Of a DNA stretch of 64,000 bases, positions 35,022-40,310 are shown in pieces. The stretch comes from Clostridia bacterium. GTDB lineage: Bacteria > Bacillota > Clostridia > TANB77 > CAG-465. The stretch is taken from assembly GCA_045537895.1 (NCBI GenBank), contig JAZSQI010000036.1:5157-69156 (forward strand), read 5' to 3'. The notes under the pieces were generated by a model, which did not search any database, was not told the origin of the DNA, and was given only the letters and a program-made list of their open reading frames with translations. Each line of letters opens with the position of its first letter. The stretch's first letter is position 1. Both the position numbers and the translations under genes were made by a program.

Positions 35022-36350
35022 TTAAACCTCTTTTTCATTTTTCCCTCTAGCCATAATTACTATTGGTGTTCCTTCTAAATCAAAATTCTTCCTTATATGA
35101 TTTTCCAAATATCTTAGATATGAAAAATGCATAAGCTCTTTATCATTTACAAACGCTACGAAAGTAGGTGGTTTGTTTCTTACTTGAGTCACATAGTATA
35201 CTTTTAATCTTTTACCTTTTTCCACATTAGGTGGGGTAACTGCTAAAGCTTCAATTATTACATCATTTAAAATACTAGTAGATACTCTAAAGTTATTAGC
35301 TTTGTATACTTTATTTATCATTTCAAATAATTTTTCAACTCTTTGACCTGTTTTTGTTGATATAAACACAATAGGAGCATAAGACATAAATTTAAAGTTT
35401 TCTCTTACTCTTTTCTTGTATGAATCAAAAGTTGTATCTCCTTTATTTATTAAATCCCATTTGTTTATTGCTATTATCATAGCTTTACCTTTTTCATGAG
35501 CATAACCTGCAATTTTTTCATCTTGCTCTGTAACTCCTTCTGTTGCATCAATCATTATAATACAAACGTCAGCCCTATCAATTGCAGATTGTGCTTTAAG
35601 TACGCTATATTTTTCTATTTTATCATATACTTTACTTTTTCTTCTTATTCCAGCTGTATCAATAAAAGTATATTTCCCATAATTATTTTCAAAATCGCTA
35701 TCTATTGCATCTCTTGTAGTTCCTGCTATGTCACTTACTATTGTTCTTTCTTCACCTAAAATATAATTTACTAAAGATGATTTTCCTACATTTGGCTTAC
35801 CAATTATTGCAACATTTATTCTCTCATCATCTTCTTCATCAATACTTGTTTTAGGAAAATGAGAGCATATTTCATCTAGCACTTCCCCTATACCAAGTTT
35901 AGCTTTAGCAGATACTGGCATAGGCTCTCCTAAACCTAAATTATAAAATTCGTATATGTCTGCTGGTGGCTTTCCAACATTATCACACTTATTACAAACA
36001 AGAATTACAGGTTTTCTTGTTCTTCTAAGCATTTCTGCTACTTCCTCATCTTGAACTGTGATTCCTGCTTTTACATCAGTTATAAAAACAATAACATCAG
36101 CCATATCCATAGCAAGCTCTGCCTGTCTTCTCATCTGTTTTAAAATTATATCTTCTGATTCTGGTTCTATTCCACCTGTATCTACCACTTGAAACACCTG
36201 TGAACACCATTCTGCATCTGCATATATTCTATCGCGAGTTACACCTGGTCTATCTTCAATTATTGCTAATTTTTCACCTATTAATACGTTAAAAAACGTA
36301 GATTTTCCAACATTTGGTCTTCCTATTATCGCAACTACTGGTTTTACCAT
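35022..36350 (-). CDS. der: Ribosome-associated GTPase Der (EngA)
   Basis: Two tandem G domains (GRPNVGKST, GKPNVGKSS) plus a KH-like C-terminus. Confidence 0.95.
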   Translation of the reverse strand: MVKPVVAIIGRPNVGKSTFFNVLIGEKLAIIEDRPGVTRDRIYADAEWCSQVFQVVDTGGIEPESEDIILKQMRRQAELAMDMADVIVFITDVKAGITVQDEEVAEMLRRTRKPVILVCNKCDNVGKPPADIYEFYNLGLGEPMPVSAKAKLGIGEVLDEICSHFPKTSIDEEDDERINVAIIGKPNVGKSSLVNYILGEERTIVSDIAGTTRDAIDSDFENNYGKYTFIDTAGIRRKSKVYDKIEKYSVLKAQSAIDRADVCIIMIDATEGVTEQDEKIAGYAHEKGKAMIIAINKWDLINKGDTTFDSYKKRVRENFKFMSYAPIVFISTKTGQRVEKLFEMINKVYKANNFRVSTSILNDVIIEALAVTPPNVEKGKRLKVYYVTQVRNKPPTFVAFVNDKELMHFSYLRYLENHIRKNFDLEGTPIVIMARGKNEKEV

Positions 36351-36447
36351 TTTAGGCCTCCTTTTTTACTTATATATTTTACTTTATTTTACACTTTTAG
36401 TCAATAAATATACGGGGAAAAGGTAAAATAAACATAAATTTATCAAT

Positions 36448-36483
36448 AAAAAAACAGATGCTAAACAAAGCACCTGTTTTTTT
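36448..36483 (-). terminator. Intrinsic terminator, copy A of a duplicated 30-nt element
   Basis: The minus strand reads ACAGGTGC-8 nt-GCATCTGT followed by T7. The stem has a G-U pair on the minus strand but an A-C mismatch on the plus strand, which favours minus-strand function. Confidence 0.8.
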
Positions 36484-36485
36484 AT

Positions 36486-36562
36486 GAAAGTTTAGGTAGG
36501 GTGACATTCCTACATCTCCTAACTCAGGGCGACGGCTGCCTGTTCCGTCCTCAGAAACTTTC
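36486..36562 (-). ncRNA. Candidate structured RNA element: 77 nt, GC-rich, three-way junction
   Basis: By my count 39 of 77 nt are G or C, in a strongly AT-rich background. Closing helix GAAAGTTT/AAACTTTC, with internal hairpins GACGG/CCGTC and GTAGG/CCTAC. It directly abuts terminator copy A. Strand and class are not established. Confidence 0.45.
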
Positions 36563-36574
36563 TTAACATATTAT

Positions 36575-36600
36575 ATGTATGAATAAATTATATCATACAT
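36575..36600. other. 8-bp hairpin (ATGTATGA-10 nt-TCATACAT) with TGATATAAT in its loop on the minus strand
   Basis: Read directly from the sequence. It could be a plus-strand terminator (followed by TTATTGTTTTTT) or could carry a minus-strand extended -10 box. Confidence 0.35.
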
Positions 36601-36611
36601 TTATTGTTTTT

Positions 36612-36998
36612 TCAATATTTTTTAGCATATCCCTTTTTTAAATATATTTCTTTTTTTCTACTGGACATTTTAAAGAGTGTTTTTGCAAACATATTTCCCC
36701 TGTTGCTTATTCTTACAGCCACCAATATAAAATCATTATTACTATAATATTCTTTTATATACTCAATAGAATTTTGCATTGGATTCTTTGCAACATATGT
36801 TGGATTATTTAATATTTTTTCTATATCTTTTCCATATTTTTTATAATCCTCCAAATGTTTCCTTTTCATATGTTCTATATTAGTTTCCCCTATTAATATT
36901 GGCAGTTCCTTTTTGAATTCTAAATTTAATAACTTAATTACTCTTTTATTAACTATTCCAATCTGTCTATTTGTATTATGCTTATCTATATTTACTAC
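36612..36998 (-). pseudogene. PBECR-like (phage Barnase/EndoU/colicin-E5/RelE-like) nuclease gene whose frame is offset by +1 from its ATG
   Basis: The frame is open from 36998 to the TGA at 36612 and encodes ...IGIVNKRVIKLLNLEFKKELPILIGETNIEHMKRKHLEDYKKYGKDIEKILNNPTYVAKNP...VAVRISNRGNMFAKTLF.... The only SD-linked ATG (37002) is in another frame and stops after 6 codons. The track ORF 36612-36869 begins in the middle of the conserved IEHMK.KH motif. Confidence 0.55.
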
Positions 36999-37018
36999 TC
37001 ATCTCCTTGCACAAACAG

Positions 37019-37027
37019 ATTATATCA
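37019..37027 (-). promoter_or_regulatory. Extended -10 box (TGATATAAT) for the nuclease cassette
   Basis: Reverse complement of 37019-37027, located 17 nt upstream of the ATG at 37002. Confidence 0.45.
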
Positions 37028-37097
37028 AAAATTTCAATAAATTCTTTTTATATTACAAAACTAGTCATTATATTTTATTTTTCAACAACAAATTAAG

Positions 37098-37127
37098 AAA
37101 ACAGATGCTAAACCAAGCACCTGTTTT
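37098..37127 (-). terminator. Intrinsic terminator, copy B of the duplicated 30-nt element, immediately after the stop of the 854-aa gene
   Basis: AAACAGATGCTAAACCAAGCACCTGTTTT differs from copy A at one loop position. Confidence 0.75.
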
Positions 37128-37128
37128 C

Positions 37129-39693
37129 TTAATTTACTCTTTCTTTAAATTGATTTATAGCTTTTGTAACTACATCACTATTTAAATATTTGTTATCGTC
37201 TTCAAGTTCTCCTATATATTTATTACACATAGTATGATATATCTCATTTGCCTTATTTGAAAGTGGACTAAGCATAATTATTCTATCTGTAAGTTTTAAC
37301 GCATAATTTAAATAAAATGCGTATGCTACCTCTTCACTAGAGAATTGCTCTTTGTATATATCAGCAAATATAATGTAATTTTCTATATATACATCTGCTA
37401 CATCATTTAATACATATTTATCATAGTATTCATATTCTAGCATCTTATCCGTATTTTCTTTTATTTTAATTACTACTCCTTTCAACTCTTTATTTAATTC
37501 TTCTCTTATTTCTTTATCATTTCCTGCATTTATATAGCCTTCTGTTACTAGCTCTTTATATTTATAATATTCTTTATTTAACTCTTTCATGTAGTCCATA
37601 TCGTATCTATCTTGAGATCTTTTTAATTCTAAATATGCAATATTTTCTGCAACTTCAAGTATATTTAAATCTCCTGATTTATTTGGAACCTTAATCAAAC
37701 TTGCTCTATATGCATTTATAGAAAAATATGATGCATAAACAAATGTAACCACAGACATTGAAAGTACTACTATTTTTATATATGACCAGTCTATCTTGCT
37801 TTTACTTTCTTTTATTTTTTCATACATAAATATAGTGTCTATATATGCTTTTAAAAGAAGTGCCGTAACTATAGCAAAAACATATATCATAAATGCATAT
37901 GAAAATGCTAAATCAACTATCATTATACTAAAAAGTAATATATATATCGATGCTATCATAGATATATGCATTTTATCTTCTAAGGAAAATCTTTTAAAGT
38001 TACTTATTAATTTTATTATTATACACACTGAAACACAAAGTATTCCTAAAAATACAACTGTTCCTACTGTTCCAACCTCAACAAGCGATTGAAGCACGGC
38101 AGAATGGGCCTCACTCGACACATACCCTATACTTTGAACACTTGCATAAGTATGCTTAAATCCTTCTCCACCAATTCCTATTATAGGATTTTTCATAAAT
38201 AGTTTAAATGTATCTTTTACATATTCCAATCTGTGATAATCACCATAATATGCTCCACTTAATGTATCTTTAATTTTAAACACTATACTATCAGGTATCA
38301 ATATGTATGACAATTTTATATTTTTATTATTTATTTTAAATCTTTCTATATCTATATTTCCATCTTGTACTTTTATTATTACGCTTATTTTTTTTGCATT
38401 TTTGCTAACTTCAAAATCAACATTAAAAGTATTTTCCTCTTTATTATAATTGTTAAAATTAGCTATCACGTTAGATGTATAATTCTCTTTTATTTCTATA
38501 ATATCAGCCGAATACTTAGCAGAATTGTAGGTATTAACTTTAACATCAAGCTCATTTTCCCCCTCTTTAAAATCATATATACTTCTCTCGATTTCTACTG
38601 GCTCTTGTGTATTACAAACAATTCTTAATTTTTTAGGTGCTATTTGAAGCACTATAGTAATAGCCAAAACAAATATCACAATAATAATTTTCACAAATCT
38701 ATTATTAAGCCCAAATACTTTAAAAACTCTACTTTCTTTTACTATTTTTTCATTTATAAATCTAAAAATTATTCTAATTAGTTCCGTAATTAAAACAAAA
38801 GCTATTGCAAATATTCCTAAAAGTATGTATATCTTCAAATATTCTTTTCTTGATATAGCCATCTCTATTATACTGCTTGAAAAAACAGAAAAAATACCTA
38901 ATATTAATTTATATATTCCTTGTTTTTTACTTATGCATACAAAATTTAGTATGCAATCTACAAATAACAACAAAGCTGATATTATTATTGCTGTTCTAGA
39001 ATCAGTAAGTATAATTGCAGAAAACTCAAGTAAAATAGCAAAAACACAAATTATTTTTTCTATATATTTATTCTTTTTTGCAAGTAAATTAGAAAGTTTA
39101 TTAAAACATATAACAAGTCCAAAAGCTATAACAATTCCTGTCACATTTGCATACTGAATTGTAGCAGATAATCTATCATTATTTGGCAAATACCCAGTCG
39201 ATATAGTATTTAAAAATTTTTCAAATGTTCTAAAAGTTAGTTGATCTATTCCTAATATACTTTGAACTATAGATATAATTACAAATATATTTAAGTATAT
39301 TTTCTCGCTTTTAGTATTTCTAACAATATAATAAATAACTGTCATATTAACATATCTAAGCATTTCAAAAATACTATCTGGCAGACTTACATATTTCTTA
39401 AATATTATGGGTAATAAATATGTAAAAGGTAAAAGAAGCATAAACATATCTAAAAATATTTTTAACTTTGGTCTTACTTTTTTATCTTCACTTTTACTTA
39501 TTACTTCTTTTATTATTTTATATACTAAATATATAGTACCTATAATTGATATTATTGCGTTGGGAAATAAAAAATCTGATTTATAGAAAGAACCCTTATA
39601 TATAGAAGTTATAAAAAGGAGCAGGCATATTATAATGTCTAATATGCCTGTTAAACTTTGAGCAATATAATTTGTTTTTTCAGTTTTTCCCAT
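37129..39693 (-). CDS. O-antigen ligase/polymerase-like polytopic membrane protein with extra soluble domains
   Basis: 854 aa. TDSRTAIIISALLLF and SEAHSAVLQSLVEVG resemble Wzy_C-type motifs. The C-terminal ~200 aa look helical-repeat-like. Confidence 0.6.
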   Translation of the reverse strand: MGKTEKTNYIAQSLTGILDIIICLLLFITSIYKGSFYKSDFLFPNAIISIIGTIYLVYKIIKEVISKSEDKKVRPKLKIFLDMFMLLLPFTYLLPIIFKKYVSLPDSIFEMLRYVNMTVIYYIVRNTKSEKIYLNIFVIISIVQSILGIDQLTFRTFEKFLNTISTGYLPNNDRLSATIQYANVTGIVIAFGLVICFNKLSNLLAKKNKYIEKIICVFAILLEFSAIILTDSRTAIIISALLLFVDCILNFVCISKKQGIYKLILGIFSVFSSSIIEMAISRKEYLKIYILLGIFAIAFVLITELIRIIFRFINEKIVKESRVFKVFGLNNRFVKIIIVIFVLAITIVLQIAPKKLRIVCNTQEPVEIERSIYDFKEGENELDVKVNTYNSAKYSADIIEIKENYTSNVIANFNNYNKEENTFNVDFEVSKNAKKISVIIKVQDGNIDIERFKINNKNIKLSYILIPDSIVFKIKDTLSGAYYGDYHRLEYVKDTFKLFMKNPIIGIGGEGFKHTYASVQSIGYVSSEAHSAVLQSLVEVGTVGTVVFLGILCVSVCIIIKLISNFKRFSLEDKMHISMIASIYILLFSIMIVDLAFSYAFMIYVFAIVTALLLKAYIDTIFMYEKIKESKSKIDWSYIKIVVLSMSVVTFVYASYFSINAYRASLIKVPNKSGDLNILEVAENIAYLELKRSQDRYDMDYMKELNKEYYKYKELVTEGYINAGNDKEIREELNKELKGVVIKIKENTDKMLEYEYYDKYVLNDVADVYIENYIIFADIYKEQFSSEEVAYAFYLNYALKLTDRIIMLSPLSNKANEIYHTMCNKYIGELEDDNKYLNSDVVTKAINQFKERVN

Positions 39694-39743: not shown

Positions 39744-40238
39744 CTATTTTCTCATTTCATCATAAAAGCTATTTTTATACTCTTCAATTTTATCTTTATC
39801 TATTGTTCCAATTTTAAACATTATTTGTTCATTTAATATTTTATATATTACATCTGTTTTCACTATACTATCTTTATGCAAATGATTTAAATTATCTTTT
39901 TCTAATAATTTATTAGCTTTAAACTTTAATTTTTCTAAATTAGATGATATAAGCATTCCAAAGTTTTCAATAGGTACTGCCGTATTATCTTTATCTATTA
40001 TAACAAAAAGGTGATTAATCCCTTTTTTACCATTAGAATAACTATATTCTTTGACGAATACAATATCACCAATGCTATAATTCACATCATAATGTTCAGT
40101 ACATTCCATTATAACATTTTCTACTTTGCCTTTGTGCCATTCATCCTCTACTGGAAATTCTTCAAATGCTTCTTTTAAATCTCTCACTTTATTATATTTG
40201 TACGCCATTTTTAAGAAATCACTCAATTCTTCTTTCAT
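39744..40238 (-). CDS. PemK/MazF-fold protein with a ~55-aa N-terminal extension
   Basis: GDIVFV...HLFVII...LISS...KDSIVKTDVIYKI...IGTIDKDKI aligns by eye with MazF/EndoA (GDVYFADL...RPVLVI...ITA...RDSVILLEQIRTID). The ATG at 40238 follows an AAAGGAG SD. Confidence 0.5.
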   Translation of the reverse strand: MKEELSDFLKMAYKYNKVRDLKEAFEEFPVEDEWHKGKVENVIMECTEHYDVNYSIGDIVFVKEYSYSNGKKGINHLFVIIDKDNTAVPIENFGMLISSNLEKLKFKANKLLEKDNLNHLHKDSIVKTDVIYKILNEQIMFKIGTIDKDKIEEYKNSFYDEMRK

Positions 40239-40310
40239 AGTAACTCCTTTCAAATCATTATACTAAATTAATATATTTATAACTTAAGCAGAATAATTAT
40301 ATATTTTTAA

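What the first reader, a model, noticed from the sequence alone, without database searches (positions are those of the whole stretch)
36486..36562. GC-rich 77-nt three-helix element fused to a terminator, ~100 nt upstream of der
This is the only conspicuously GC-rich patch in 64 kb of AT-rich DNA (39 of 77 nt by my count). It folds on paper into a closing 8-bp helix (GAAAGTTT/AAACTTTC) that encloses two 5-bp hairpins (GACGG-9 nt-CCGTC and GTAGG-8 nt-CCTAC), with a 17-nt joining strand. On the minus strand it is followed within 3 nt by an intrinsic terminator, whose G-U pair favours minus-strand function. After that come the der-plsY-pta genes. Two TATAAT boxes lie 8-35 nt upstream on the minus strand. 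An aptamer-like fold followed by a terminator and then a gene is the riboswitch/attenuator layout. Alternatively it could be a ~125-nt sRNA or the 3' UTR of the adjacent nuclease cassette. The P2 loop sequence AACAGG repeats the 5' arm of the terminator, so the terminator's 3' arm could pair with either. I could not match it to any riboswitch or RNA family I know.
Basis: partly seen in the sequence, partly recalled or inferred. Interest (0 to 1): 0.66.

Follow-up and report, generated by a model that had tools for sequence, protein, structure and literature searches.

The report
Known skipping-rope RNA beside nuclease gene
The GC-rich element is a typical member of a known but functionally unexplained small-RNA family (skipping-rope, Rfam RF02924); it arrived upstream of der as part of a small mobile cassette with a predicted RNase gene and is not a regulator of der.

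Summary
It is not an unknown RNA: on the minus strand it matches Rfam RF02924 (skipping-rope RNA) at 51.7 bits (gathering score 36.7). P1, P2 and P4 covary strongly in 66 diverse members.

It is not a der leader. Close relatives (flanks 96% identical) have only 131 nt and one terminator between the Wzy_C-like gene and der, with the same der promoter. The window carries a 647-nt insertion, bracketed by a 38-nt duplication of that terminator. The insertion holds a PBECR3 (Barnase/EndoU/colicin/RelE-like RNase) gene, then a promoter, the RNA and a terminator.

PBECR3 homologues in 7 unrelated contexts carry the RNA about 55 nt downstream in all 21 loci tested. In the other direction, 105 of 230 RNA loci have PBECR3, almost always directly upstream on the same strand.

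The window's PBECR3 has lost its start codon, while the RNA, its promoter and its terminator are intact.

Best inference (not shown): the RNA is the cognate partner of the RNase and neutralises it, like a type III antitoxin. The feature itself is already known; the mechanism is open and testable.

The parts
36486..36562 (-). Skipping-rope RNA (Rfam RF02924). P1 36562-36555/36493-36486, plus an inner G-C pair 36552/36495. P2 36549-36545/36535-36531, loop AACAGGCAG. Vestigial P3 and invariant GAGAUG in 36530-36514. P4 36513-36509/36500-36496, loop AAUGUCAC.
   Evidence: Rfam cmscan: 36489-36559 (-), 51.7 bits against gathering score 36.7, E 2e-9. Own covariance model R1: 84 bits. Covariation on 66 sequences.
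36587..36615 (-). Promoter-like site for the RNA: -35 TTGAAA (36615-36610, overlapping the PBECR3 stop codon), 17-nt spacer, TGnTATAAT (36594-36587). A second TATAAT lies at 36575-36570, just before P1.
   Evidence: 11 of 12 consensus match with extended TG. -10-like hexamers peak at about -45 and -23 from the GAGG anchor across the family; the window's boxes lie at -40 and -23. Transcription itself was not measured.
36446..36485 (-). Intrinsic terminator of the RNA (17-bp stem, 6-nt loop, A-tract/U-tract). It is also the right-hand copy of the 38-nt direct repeat (36447-36484).
   Evidence: Inverted repeat I4 and direct repeat D1. The fold of 36440-36582 has z = -4.9. A terminator-like hairpin follows 121 of 183 family members.
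36612..36974 (-). PBECR3-family predicted RNase gene (120 codons by homology). Its start codon is replaced by ACA (36974-36972) and about 15 nt are inserted between the Shine-Dalgarno sequence and that position. The first canonical in-frame start is ATG 36869, which would drop the invariant His just before it. It is probably a decaying gene.
   Evidence: Pfam PF18812: 51.8 bits for the 85-aa ORF, 78.6 bits (profile positions 3-114) for the open frame extended upstream. All homologues start MN(K/R)QIG. DNA alignment.
36975..37093 (-). 5' region of the cassette (promoter and ribosome-binding-site region of PBECR3). It is not conserved at the DNA level with other cassettes.
   Evidence: blastn homology to other cassettes covers only about 36486-36975. 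Alignment A2.
37094..37131 (-). Left-hand copy of the 38-nt direct repeat: the terminator of the upstream 854-aa Wzy_C-like gene, including its stop codon.
   Evidence: D1: 92% identical copies, 647 nt apart. Empty-site relatives L255 and L256 have one copy.
36376..36404 (-). der's own promoter-like site (TTGACT-17-TAAAAT), between the RNA terminator and der (35022-36350). It is not part of the element and is listed to show that der is a separate unit.
   Evidence: Near-identical in empty-site relatives L255 and L256.

Best explanation
The element is a skipping-rope small RNA gene (Rfam RF02924), transcribed on the minus strand from its own promoter and ended by its own terminator. It is the second half of a roughly 0.6-kb mobile two-part cassette whose first half encodes a small PBECR3-family (Barnase/EndoU/colicin/RelE-fold) predicted RNase. 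The cassette inserted at the terminator of the Wzy_C-like gene, upstream of der, and duplicated 38 nt of the target. It has no regulatory relation to der. Most likely mechanism (inferred, not shown): the folded RNA is the cognate partner of the PBECR3 RNase. It binds the protein through its conserved P2 and P4 loops and GAG-containing junctions and keeps it inactive, in the manner of a type III RNA antitoxin or the RCd22/AbiF pair. The cassette would then act as an addiction or abortive-infection module of prophages and integrative elements. In this window the toxin gene has lost its start codon, while the RNA, its promoter and its terminator remain intact. Shown: family membership, fold, linkage geometry, the insertion, and the damaged start. 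Inferred: RNase activity, toxicity, RNA-protein binding and neutralisation. My confidence by step: identity as skipping-rope about 0.97; recent cassette insertion unrelated to der about 0.95; antitoxin-like mechanism about 0.4. The figure given is for the full statement including the mechanism.
For: Identity: the only Rfam hit in the window, 51.7 bits against a gathering score of 36.7. Covariation: P2 and P4 are 99.7% paired with many double-sided changes, and all 8 outer P1 pairs show compensatory changes; the covariation score is 0.415 against 0.150 in shuffles (0 of 500 reach it) and at most 0.24 in slid controls. Cassette and insertion: relatives with 96%-identical flanks have a 131-nt gap with one terminator copy, and the window has 778 = 131 + 647 nt with the 38-nt repeat on both sides. 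Linkage: all 21 PBECR3 loci with readable flank, in 7 unrelated contexts, carry the RNA about 53-107 nt downstream on the same strand. Of 230 RNA loci found by pattern, 105 have a PBECR3-like ORF within 1.5 kb; 106 of 109 such ORFs lie directly upstream on the same strand, median gap 59 nt, across proteins only 23-74% identical. In unbiased clustering PBECR3 is the top neighbour and the only one with fixed geometry. The cassette has no room for a non-overlapping second gene. Protein clades and RNA loop subtypes partition cleanly (45 of 45 class A, 35 of 35 class B). Asymmetry typical of toxin-antitoxin pairs: I saw no toxin gene without the RNA, many RNAs without the toxin, and at least 6 of 90 cassettes plus the window with a broken PBECR3 and an intact RNA. 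The His, His, Lys, Arg and Thr/Ser positions are conserved in the family. -10-like hexamers sit at fixed distances upstream of the RNA. Precedent: another protein-linked RNA motif from the same 2017 screen (abiF motif, RCd22) neutralises its neighbouring toxin by direct binding. Context: lysogeny-module ends of prophages, next to integrases and CI-like repressors.
Against: No experiment shows that PBECR3 is an RNase or is toxic; the family is a computational prediction. The AlphaFold model (pLDDT 81) found no significant PDB neighbour; the best sensible hit is a CDI toxin at E = 0.097. About half of the RNAs are solitary, and only 2 of 109 have a PBECR3 remnant upstream, so the RNA may have a function of its own. 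Clade-subtype co-variation and co-occurrence could be explained by physical linkage alone. The architecture differs from canonical type III systems: a single structured RNA placed after the toxin gene, rather than tandem repeats before it. PADLOC has no model for the protein. The protein-first sample is mostly one clade (at least 66% identical), plus one group at 47-50%.
Confidence: 0.4

Rival explanations
1. The RNA is a positive partner of PBECR3 rather than its inhibitor. It could be a specific substrate that the RNase processes, or a scaffold, cofactor or guide that forms an active ribonucleoprotein effector (for example, one that directs or activates cleavage of phage or host RNA).
For: The same linkage data apply. 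The RNA carries two invariant GAG-containing single-stranded junctions (GAGG before P2, GAGAUG before P4) that could be recognition or cleavage sites. From my own knowledge, not tested here: the BECR-fold RNase RegB of phage T4 cuts at GGAG. The discoverers judged the structure complex enough for a 'sophisticated biochemical function'.
Against: Solitary RNAs are common, while no solitary PBECR3 was seen. Broken toxin genes with an intact RNA recur. A cofactor would be expected to decay together with its enzyme. A BECR RNase with no immunity factor at all would be unusual.
Confidence: 0.2
2. The RNA is an autonomous trans-acting sRNA or protein sponge of prophages and mobile elements with its own host or phage target. 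PBECR3 is only a frequent neighbouring accessory ('moron') gene.
For: 125 of 230 RNA loci lack PBECR3 within 1.5 kb, and the RNA there sits next to integrases, CI-like repressors and assorted toxin or Abi genes. It has its own promoter geometry and terminator.
Against: A passive neighbour would not keep a fixed side, strand and roughly 55-nt spacing across proteins only 23-74% identical. It would not show clean clade-subtype partition or be present at 21 of 21 loci. The highly conserved loops argue for a protein or structured target rather than variable mRNA targets.
Confidence: 0.2
3. The element is a cis-acting 3'-UTR structure of the PBECR3 mRNA (stability or processing), or an antisense type I-like regulator that pairs with the PBECR3 5' region.
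For: No terminator lies between the PBECR3 stop codon and the RNA, so read-through transcripts would include it. The cognate RNA x 5'-region duplex energy is slightly better than non-cognate (-25.4 against -24.7 +/- 0.4 kcal/mol).
Against: The energy difference is marginal and could reflect shared base composition. Solitary copies and 3 convergent arrangements exist. Positionally fixed -10-like elements lie upstream of the RNA. The conserved loops do not track the variable 5' regions.
Confidence: 0.08
4. The element is a riboswitch or attenuator controlling der-plsY-pta.
For: Only the local layout supports it: a structured RNA followed by a terminator upstream of der on the same strand.
Against: The element is absent from all 11 relatives' der loci, while the der promoter and ribosome-binding site are unchanged. 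It is a recent horizontal insertion. The family is rarely found in 5' UTRs. The alternative pairing is not conserved. der has its own promoter downstream of the terminator.
Confidence: 0.01

Closest known systems
Skipping-rope RNA motif, Rfam RF02924 (Weinberg et al. 2017, NAR 45:10811; PMC5737381)
   Same: Full-length covariance-model match above the gathering score. Same multi-stem junction with invariant GAGG...GGAA..GG and GAGAUG..GG nucleotides. A 3' intrinsic terminator. Not a 5' UTR. Associated with a specific nearby protein gene. Bacillota host, with many copies in viral contigs.
   Different: P3 is reduced to a marginal 2-4 bp stem in this subtype. In my sample the partner gene is almost always upstream on the same strand, whereas the paper describes 'either orientation and either side'; the paper's supplement was not available, so I could not confirm that its partner domain is PBECR3. 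This copy sits beside a damaged partner gene.
RCd22 / abiF-motif RNA with AbiF (Abi_2) of a C. difficile prophage (bioRxiv 10.1101/2025.04.15.648962)
   Same: A structured, non-repetitive RNA motif from the same 2017 screen, encoded next to a prophage toxin-like RNA-targeting protein. [quoted passage not shown] This is the best functional analogy.
   Different: Unrelated RNA fold and unrelated protein (HEPN-like Abi_2 against the BECR-fold PBECR3). No experiments exist for skipping-rope/PBECR3.
Type III toxin-antitoxin systems (ToxIN, CptIN, TenpIN)
   Same: An endoribonuclease toxin paired with a non-coding RNA. Found on mobile elements and prophages, with a role in abortive infection. The phage-borne orphan pseudo-antitoxin RNAs known for ToxIN (my own knowledge, not checked here) parallel the solitary skipping-rope copies.
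   Different: Canonical antitoxins are tandem repeats located upstream of the toxin gene, separated from it by a terminator, and processed by the toxin. Here a single complex RNA lies downstream and has its own promoter. The toxin folds are unrelated.
PBECR domains of phage polyvalent proteins and MuF fusions (Iyer et al. 2017, J Bacteriol 199:e00245-17; PMC5512222)
   Same: The protein matches Pfam PBECR3/PBECR2 and keeps the His and Thr/Ser-type residues proposed as the active site. Phage and prophage association.
   Different: Here it is a solo 110-135-aa protein tied to an RNA gene. That paper predicts RNase function but describes no RNA partner or immunity factor.
Drum and DUF3800-I to -XI RNA motifs (same 2017 screen)
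   Same: Highly conserved structured RNAs with 3' terminators, genetically tied to one protein domain, function unknown.
   Different: Different folds and different partner proteins. None matched the window.

Membership tests
Skipping-rope RNA (RF02924) | Covariance-model score at or above the curated gathering score over the full model | tested here: met
   51.7 bits against 36.7, model positions 1-80 of 80, E 2e-9 over the whole window.
Skipping-rope RNA (RF02924) | Closing helix P1 enclosing hairpins P2 and P4 with conserved loop and junction nucleotides, supported by covariation | tested here: met
   P2 and P4 are 99.7% paired with compensatory changes. All 8 outer P1 pairs covary. 0 of 500 shuffles reach the observed score.
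Skipping-rope RNA (RF02924) | Central variable hairpin P3 | tested here: inconclusive
   The window has only a 4-bp minimum-free-energy stem (CCUG/UAGG). Those registers are paired in only 54% of cells family-wide, and the covariance model marks non-canonical pairs there. P3 is long in other subtypes.
Skipping-rope RNA (RF02924) | Rho-independent terminator at the 3' end | tested here: met
   A 17-bp hairpin with a U-tract begins 1 nt after P1. A terminator follows 121 of 183 members.
Skipping-rope RNA (RF02924) | Association with a specific protein gene nearby rather than a 5'-UTR position | tested here: met
   A PBECR3 gene ends 49 nt upstream of P1. The general association is shown.
Riboswitch / transcription attenuator of der | Conserved position in the 5' leader of the regulated gene across relatives | tested here: not met
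   None of 11 relatives' der loci has the RNA. The RNA is found in 7 other contexts.
Riboswitch / transcription attenuator of der | Conserved mutually exclusive pairing between the aptamer and the terminator | tested here: not met
   Loop 6-mer repeats occur downstream in 19 of 183 members, against 22.9 +/- 3.9 in the control. The terminators differ between contexts.
Riboswitch / transcription attenuator of der | Ligand binding | not testable with these tools
   This needs in-line probing. The main text of the 2017 paper reports no ligand-binding test for this motif, only a negative self-cleavage test.
Type III toxin-antitoxin (ToxIN-like) | Toxin is an endoribonuclease whose expression is toxic | not testable with these tools
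   There is only the Pfam PBECR3 assignment (E 4.5e-22) and conserved His/Lys/Arg/Thr positions. The fold search gave no significant match.
Type III toxin-antitoxin (ToxIN-like) | Antitoxin is an array of tandem RNA repeats upstream of the toxin gene | tested here: not met
   A single-copy structured RNA lies downstream of the gene. The only direct repeats in the region are the flanking terminator copies.
Type III toxin-antitoxin (ToxIN-like) | RNA binds and neutralises the toxin protein | not testable with these tools
   Inferred only, from the linkage, the toxin/RNA asymmetry and the decay pattern.
PBECR3 (PF18812), for the adjacent ORF | Pfam score above the gathering score across the domain | tested here: met
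   78.6 bits against 30, profile positions 3-114 of 115, on the extended frame.
PBECR3 (PF18812), for the adjacent ORF | Intact, translatable gene | tested here: not met
   ACA replaces the start codon used by all homologues, and the first canonical start removes the invariant His.

The most novel reading that the evidence does not exclude
Skipping-rope RNA is a new kind of RNA antitoxin or immunity factor. It would be a single, complex-folded sRNA that directly neutralises a BECR-fold (PBECR3) RNase, forming a compact mobile RNA-protein toxin-antitoxin or abortive-infection module. The many solitary copies in prophages and chromosomes would act as 'anti-toxin' decoys against PBECR3 effectors delivered by competing phages. 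A further possibility is that the cassette moves by an unusual mechanism that duplicates 38 to 66 nt or more of target sequence.
Probability: 0.35. Interest if true: 0.7.

Novelty: already known. Interest (0 to 1): 0.38.

Why it matters
As a feature of this window it is ordinary: a clear hit to a curated RNA family. The wider value is that skipping-rope has had no proposed function since 2017, when its discoverers wrote that no specific hypothesis was obvious to them for the related DUF3800 motifs. The data gathered here name the partner as a PBECR3 predicted RNase. They show a strict gene-RNA geometry, a toxin/RNA asymmetry, repeated decay of the protein gene beside an intact RNA, and a filled/empty site pair. 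Together these turn the open question into a simple toxicity-rescue and binding experiment. If that experiment confirms the idea, it would add a second structured, non-repeat RNA antitoxin class after abiF/RCd22, and it would assign a first immunity mechanism to solo PBECR RNases.

Tried and rejected
- The supplement of Weinberg 2017, which names the associated protein, is not held, so the published partner domain could not be compared with PBECR3.
- tblastn of the PBECR3 protein against 50,697 GenBank phage records found no match.
- PADLOC gave no family, and PHROGs gave only an unknown-function family, phrog_29609.
- The PDB fold search with the AlphaFold model (pLDDT 81.3) had no hit at E <= 0.001. 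A CDI toxin chain (7m5f_C) at E 0.097 is only a hint.
- The search for related loci with the diverse alignment A6 failed because no stretch was conserved enough. The tight alignment A1 gave only 4 viral loci.
- The antisense-pairing test of RNA against the PBECR3 5' region was marginal, so I rejected it as the main mechanism.
- A search for PBECR3 remnants upstream or downstream of solitary RNAs found 2 of 109. 'Orphans are decayed cassettes' is therefore rejected as a general explanation.
- Pfam scans of the ORFs upstream of solitary RNAs gave a heterogeneous mix (Abi_2, PemK, YoeB, YafQ, PIN, NYN, SocA, HTH) with no second common partner.
- A scan for hidden second ORFs in the cassettes was uninformative, because chance antisense ORFs are everywhere. 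My automatic 'no start codon' class is unreliable for divergent subfamilies and is used only for the window, where it was checked by hand.
- Other weak Rfam matches in the region (mir-703, STnc240, STnc40, Atu_C9) are far below their gathering scores and lie on the AT-rich terminator. I rejected them as chance.
- An exact look-up of the window's Der protein found no contig. Relatives were reached through its 90% cluster instead.

Full report
**1. The observation**

Window 36486-36562 is 39/77 G+C in a window of 27.2% GC. It is the single top-ranked 77-nt window for GC. On the minus strand it reads GAAAGUUUCUGAGGACGGAACAGGCAGCCGUCGCCCUGAGUUAGGAGAUGUAGGAAUGUCACCCUACCUAAACUUUC.

- The 77-mer alone does not fold better than shuffled sequence (z = -0.38). 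With the adjacent terminator z is -4.9.
- The terminator is a 17-bp A-tract/U-tract hairpin at 36485-36446.
- Two TATAAT boxes lie at 36592-36587 and 36575-36570. The first belongs to a TTGAAA-17-TGnTATAAT site with 11 of 12 matches.
- der (35022-36350), plsY and pta follow. der has its own TTGACT-17-TAAAAT site at 36404-36376, downstream of the terminator.

**2. What it is**

A scan of the whole window against Rfam gives one hit: RF02924, skipping-rope RNA, at 36489-36559 on the minus strand. It scores 51.7 bits against a gathering score of 36.7 and matches the full model. There are no tRNAs or other families.

The '17-nt joining strand' holds the vestigial P3 and the invariant GAGAUG.

Of 240 matches, 230 show the P2 and P4 hairpins and 186 are unique.

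On an alignment of the window's RNA with 65 diverse members, pair counts were as follows:

- P2 and P4 are 99.7% paired, with many double-sided changes. Pair 24-40 is AU 39, UA 17, GC 10; pair 78-93 is GC 26, AU 23, UA 15.
- All eight outer P1 pairs show compensatory changes. P1 was not constrained by my search pattern.
- The covariation score is 0.415, against 0.150 in shuffles (0 of 500 reach it) and at most 0.24 in slid controls.
- P1 is 70.5% paired in the window's register. The +1 slid control suggests that much of the remainder reflects a one-column shift in subtypes lacking the 2x1 internal loop.
- P3 in the window's register is not supported family-wide (54% paired).

**3. It belongs to a nuclease cassette, not to der**

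The 85-aa ORF directly upstream on the same strand (36612-36869) is PBECR3 (PF18812), but it matches only profile positions 34-114. The frame stays open upstream, and the 128-aa translation matches positions 3-114 at 78.6 bits.

The database search found 154 homologues; the 120 listed are mostly 120-121 aa, and all ten I aligned start MN(K/R)QIG. The window has ACA at that codon (36974-36972) and about 15 extra nt between the Shine-Dalgarno sequence and that position. The first canonical start, ATG 36869, falls just after an invariant His. The gene is therefore very probably inactive.

Homologues were located in 7 unrelated contexts:

- a DUF5711/Colicin_V/DUF308 neighbourhood;
- a glycosyltransferase cluster;
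- next to enolase;
- next to a PALP enzyme;
- between prophage tail genes;
- after holin-endolysin at a prophage end beside an integrase;
- a viral contig group.

All 21 loci with readable downstream flank carry a skipping-rope RNA 53-107 nt after the stop codon on the same strand. Rfam scores are 50-51 bits; my covariance model R1 scores 66-83 bits.

In the other direction, 105 of 230 RNA loci have a PBECR3-like ORF within 1.5 kb. Of 109 such ORFs, 106 lie directly upstream on the same strand (median gap 59 nt) and 3 are convergent. These proteins are solo domains of 110-135 aa, only 23-74% identical to the window's. Unbiased clustering of all neighbouring ORFs ranks PBECR3 first (103 loci). 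Cro/CI-type HTH regulators (46), tyrosine integrases (29), serine recombinases (9) and ImmA-like peptidases (9) follow. That is the lysogeny-module end of prophages and integrative elements.

**4. A filled/empty site pair**

The window's Der has relatives at 90% identity or more in metagenomes.

- In L255 and L256 the flanks are 96% (der side) and 89-93% (Wzy side) identical to the window, and the synteny pheT - Wzy_C-like - der - plsY - pta is kept.
- There the Wzy_C-der gap is 131 nt and contains one copy of the terminator.
- In the window the gap is 778 nt = 131 + 647. The 38-nt terminator, including the stop codon, is present on both sides of the insert (36447-36484 and 37094-37131, 92% identical).
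- The der promoter and ribosome-binding site are essentially unchanged.
- None of 11 relatives' der loci contains the RNA.
- The closest DNA relatives of the cassette are only about 78% identical. The homology covers only the CDS, the spacer and the RNA (about 36486-36975). This is a horizontally acquired cassette.
- The host is an uncultured, very AT-rich Clostridia lineage. The only named Der relatives are 'Clostridia bacterium' MAGs at about 70% identity.

**5.

The AACAGG coincidence between the P2 loop and the terminator is real in the window, but the loop is a family-invariant sequence whereas terminators differ between contexts. A loop 6-mer recurs downstream in 19 of 183 members, against 22.9 +/- 3.9 for mismatched controls.

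The discoverers also state that the motif is only rarely found in 5' UTRs, and that it showed no self-cleavage. The riboswitch/attenuator reading is therefore rejected.

**6. How it most likely works**

Shown:

- The RNA and the PBECR3 gene form a two-part unit with fixed geometry across deep divergence.
- Protein clades partition cleanly with RNA loop subtypes: 45 of 45 are class A, 35 of 35 are class B, and a third clade is A or C.
- -10-like hexamers peak at fixed distances (about -45 and -23) upstream of the RNA, and the window's boxes (at -40 and -23) sit on these peaks.
- A terminator-like hairpin follows 121 of 183 RNAs.
- There is no room in the cassette for a second non-overlapping gene.
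- No PBECR3 gene was seen without the RNA, while about half of the RNAs are solitary. Only 2 of 109 solitary RNAs have a PBECR3 remnant nearby.
- At least 6 of 90 unique cassettes have a frameshifted, stopped or truncated PBECR3 next to an intact RNA. Four of these are chromosomal copies of the window's own clade, and the window is one more case.

Inferred: BECR-fold RNases normally need an immunity factor (Iyer et al. 2017), and the RNA is the only other conserved component. The direction of dependency and decay is that of a toxin and its antitoxin. I therefore favour an RNA that binds and neutralises PBECR3. That resembles type III systems, and especially RCd22/AbiF, where a motif from the same 2017 screen was shown to do this. 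Solitary copies would then be orphan antitoxins or decoys.

Weak points:

- There is no experimental evidence for RNase activity or toxicity.
- The fold search found no significant structural neighbour.
- Linkage alone can explain the co-variation.
- The architecture differs from canonical type III systems.

Rivals are an activating, substrate or guide role; an autonomous sRNA; and a 3'-UTR or antisense role. The antisense test was marginal: -25.4 against -24.7 +/- 0.4 kcal/mol.

**7. Comparison and novelty**

The feature is a typical member of a curated family, so as a finding it is already known. What is not in the literature I could search is any function for skipping-rope, or any RNA partner for PBECR proteins. 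The analysis above gives a specific, testable hypothesis and a natural filled/empty site pair.

**8. Verdict**

- Observation: confirmed.
- Interpretation: partly supported. The der riboswitch is wrong; the sRNA and nuclease-cassette readings are right.
- Identity: confident, about 0.97.
- Mechanism: inferred, about 0.4.
- Interest: moderate-low for the window itself, higher for the hypothesis it opens.

Noticed in passing
window 36447-36484 and 37094-37131; L090 about 2916 and 3640; L044 about 5900 and 6585: The roughly 0.65-0.72-kb PBECR3 + RNA cassette is bracketed by long direct repeats of local target sequence: 38 nt (a terminator) in the window, at least 40 nt (a GC-rich hairpin) in L090, and at least 66 nt (AT-rich) in L044. 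The repeat sequence differs at each site, so it derives from the target. It is far longer than ordinary transposase target duplications, and the cassette encodes no recombinase. 83 of 95 other cassettes show no flanking repeat. The mobility mechanism is unknown.
   Followed up: partly
window 36869-37010 (minus strand): The PBECR3 gene has ACA where all homologues have the start codon, and about 15 nt are inserted after the Shine-Dalgarno sequence. A 6-codon out-of-frame mini-ORF (ATG at 37001) sits there instead. The remaining 120 codons are open and keep every family-invariant residue, so the inactivation looks recent.
   Followed up: yes
window 39744-40253 (minus strand), compared with L255 2230-2373: A 169-aa ORF lies between pheT and the Wzy_C-like gene. 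It has a weak PemK/MazF-like match (E 5.8e-4, below the Pfam cut-off) and no PADLOC or PHROGs hit. It is intact in the window, but the close relative L255 keeps only its first 49 codons (98% identical) and has lost about 380 nt. This is a second toxin-like gene that is polymorphic between strains.
   Followed up: partly
L016, L067, L081, L108 (genome contigs of uncultured Clostridium/Clostridia): The window's closest chromosomal cassette relatives all carry frameshifted PBECR3 genes next to intact, high-scoring skipping-rope RNAs.
   Followed up: partly
L260 1717-1807 and 2001-2357: A viral contig has a skipping-rope RNA about 200 nt upstream of a PBECR3 gene. The contig ends at the gene, so a downstream copy cannot be seen. 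This may be a tandem or rearranged cassette.
   Followed up: no
solitary-RNA loci, e.g. L015, L177/L183/L186, L175/L187/L247: Solitary skipping-rope RNAs often sit directly downstream of other RNase-type toxin or Abi genes (YoeB, YafQ, PemK, PIN, NYN, Abi_2), or next to integrases and CI/ImmA modules. I could not tell whether this reflects shared insertion hot-spots or alternative partners.
   Followed up: partly
P0088, P0114 (homologues of the window's PBECR3): Some PBECR3 homologues are named 'transposase' in NCBI MAG annotations. Nothing in the sequence supports this (Pfam gives only PBECR2/PBECR3), so it looks like annotation carry-over.
   Followed up: no
window 37129-39693 compared with L255 2389-4869: The Wzy_C/O-antigen-ligase-like membrane protein is 854 aa in the window and 826 aa in the close relative. 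It is only about 89-92% identical at the DNA level, against 96% for der, so it is a faster-evolving surface-polysaccharide gene next to the insertion site.
   Followed up: no
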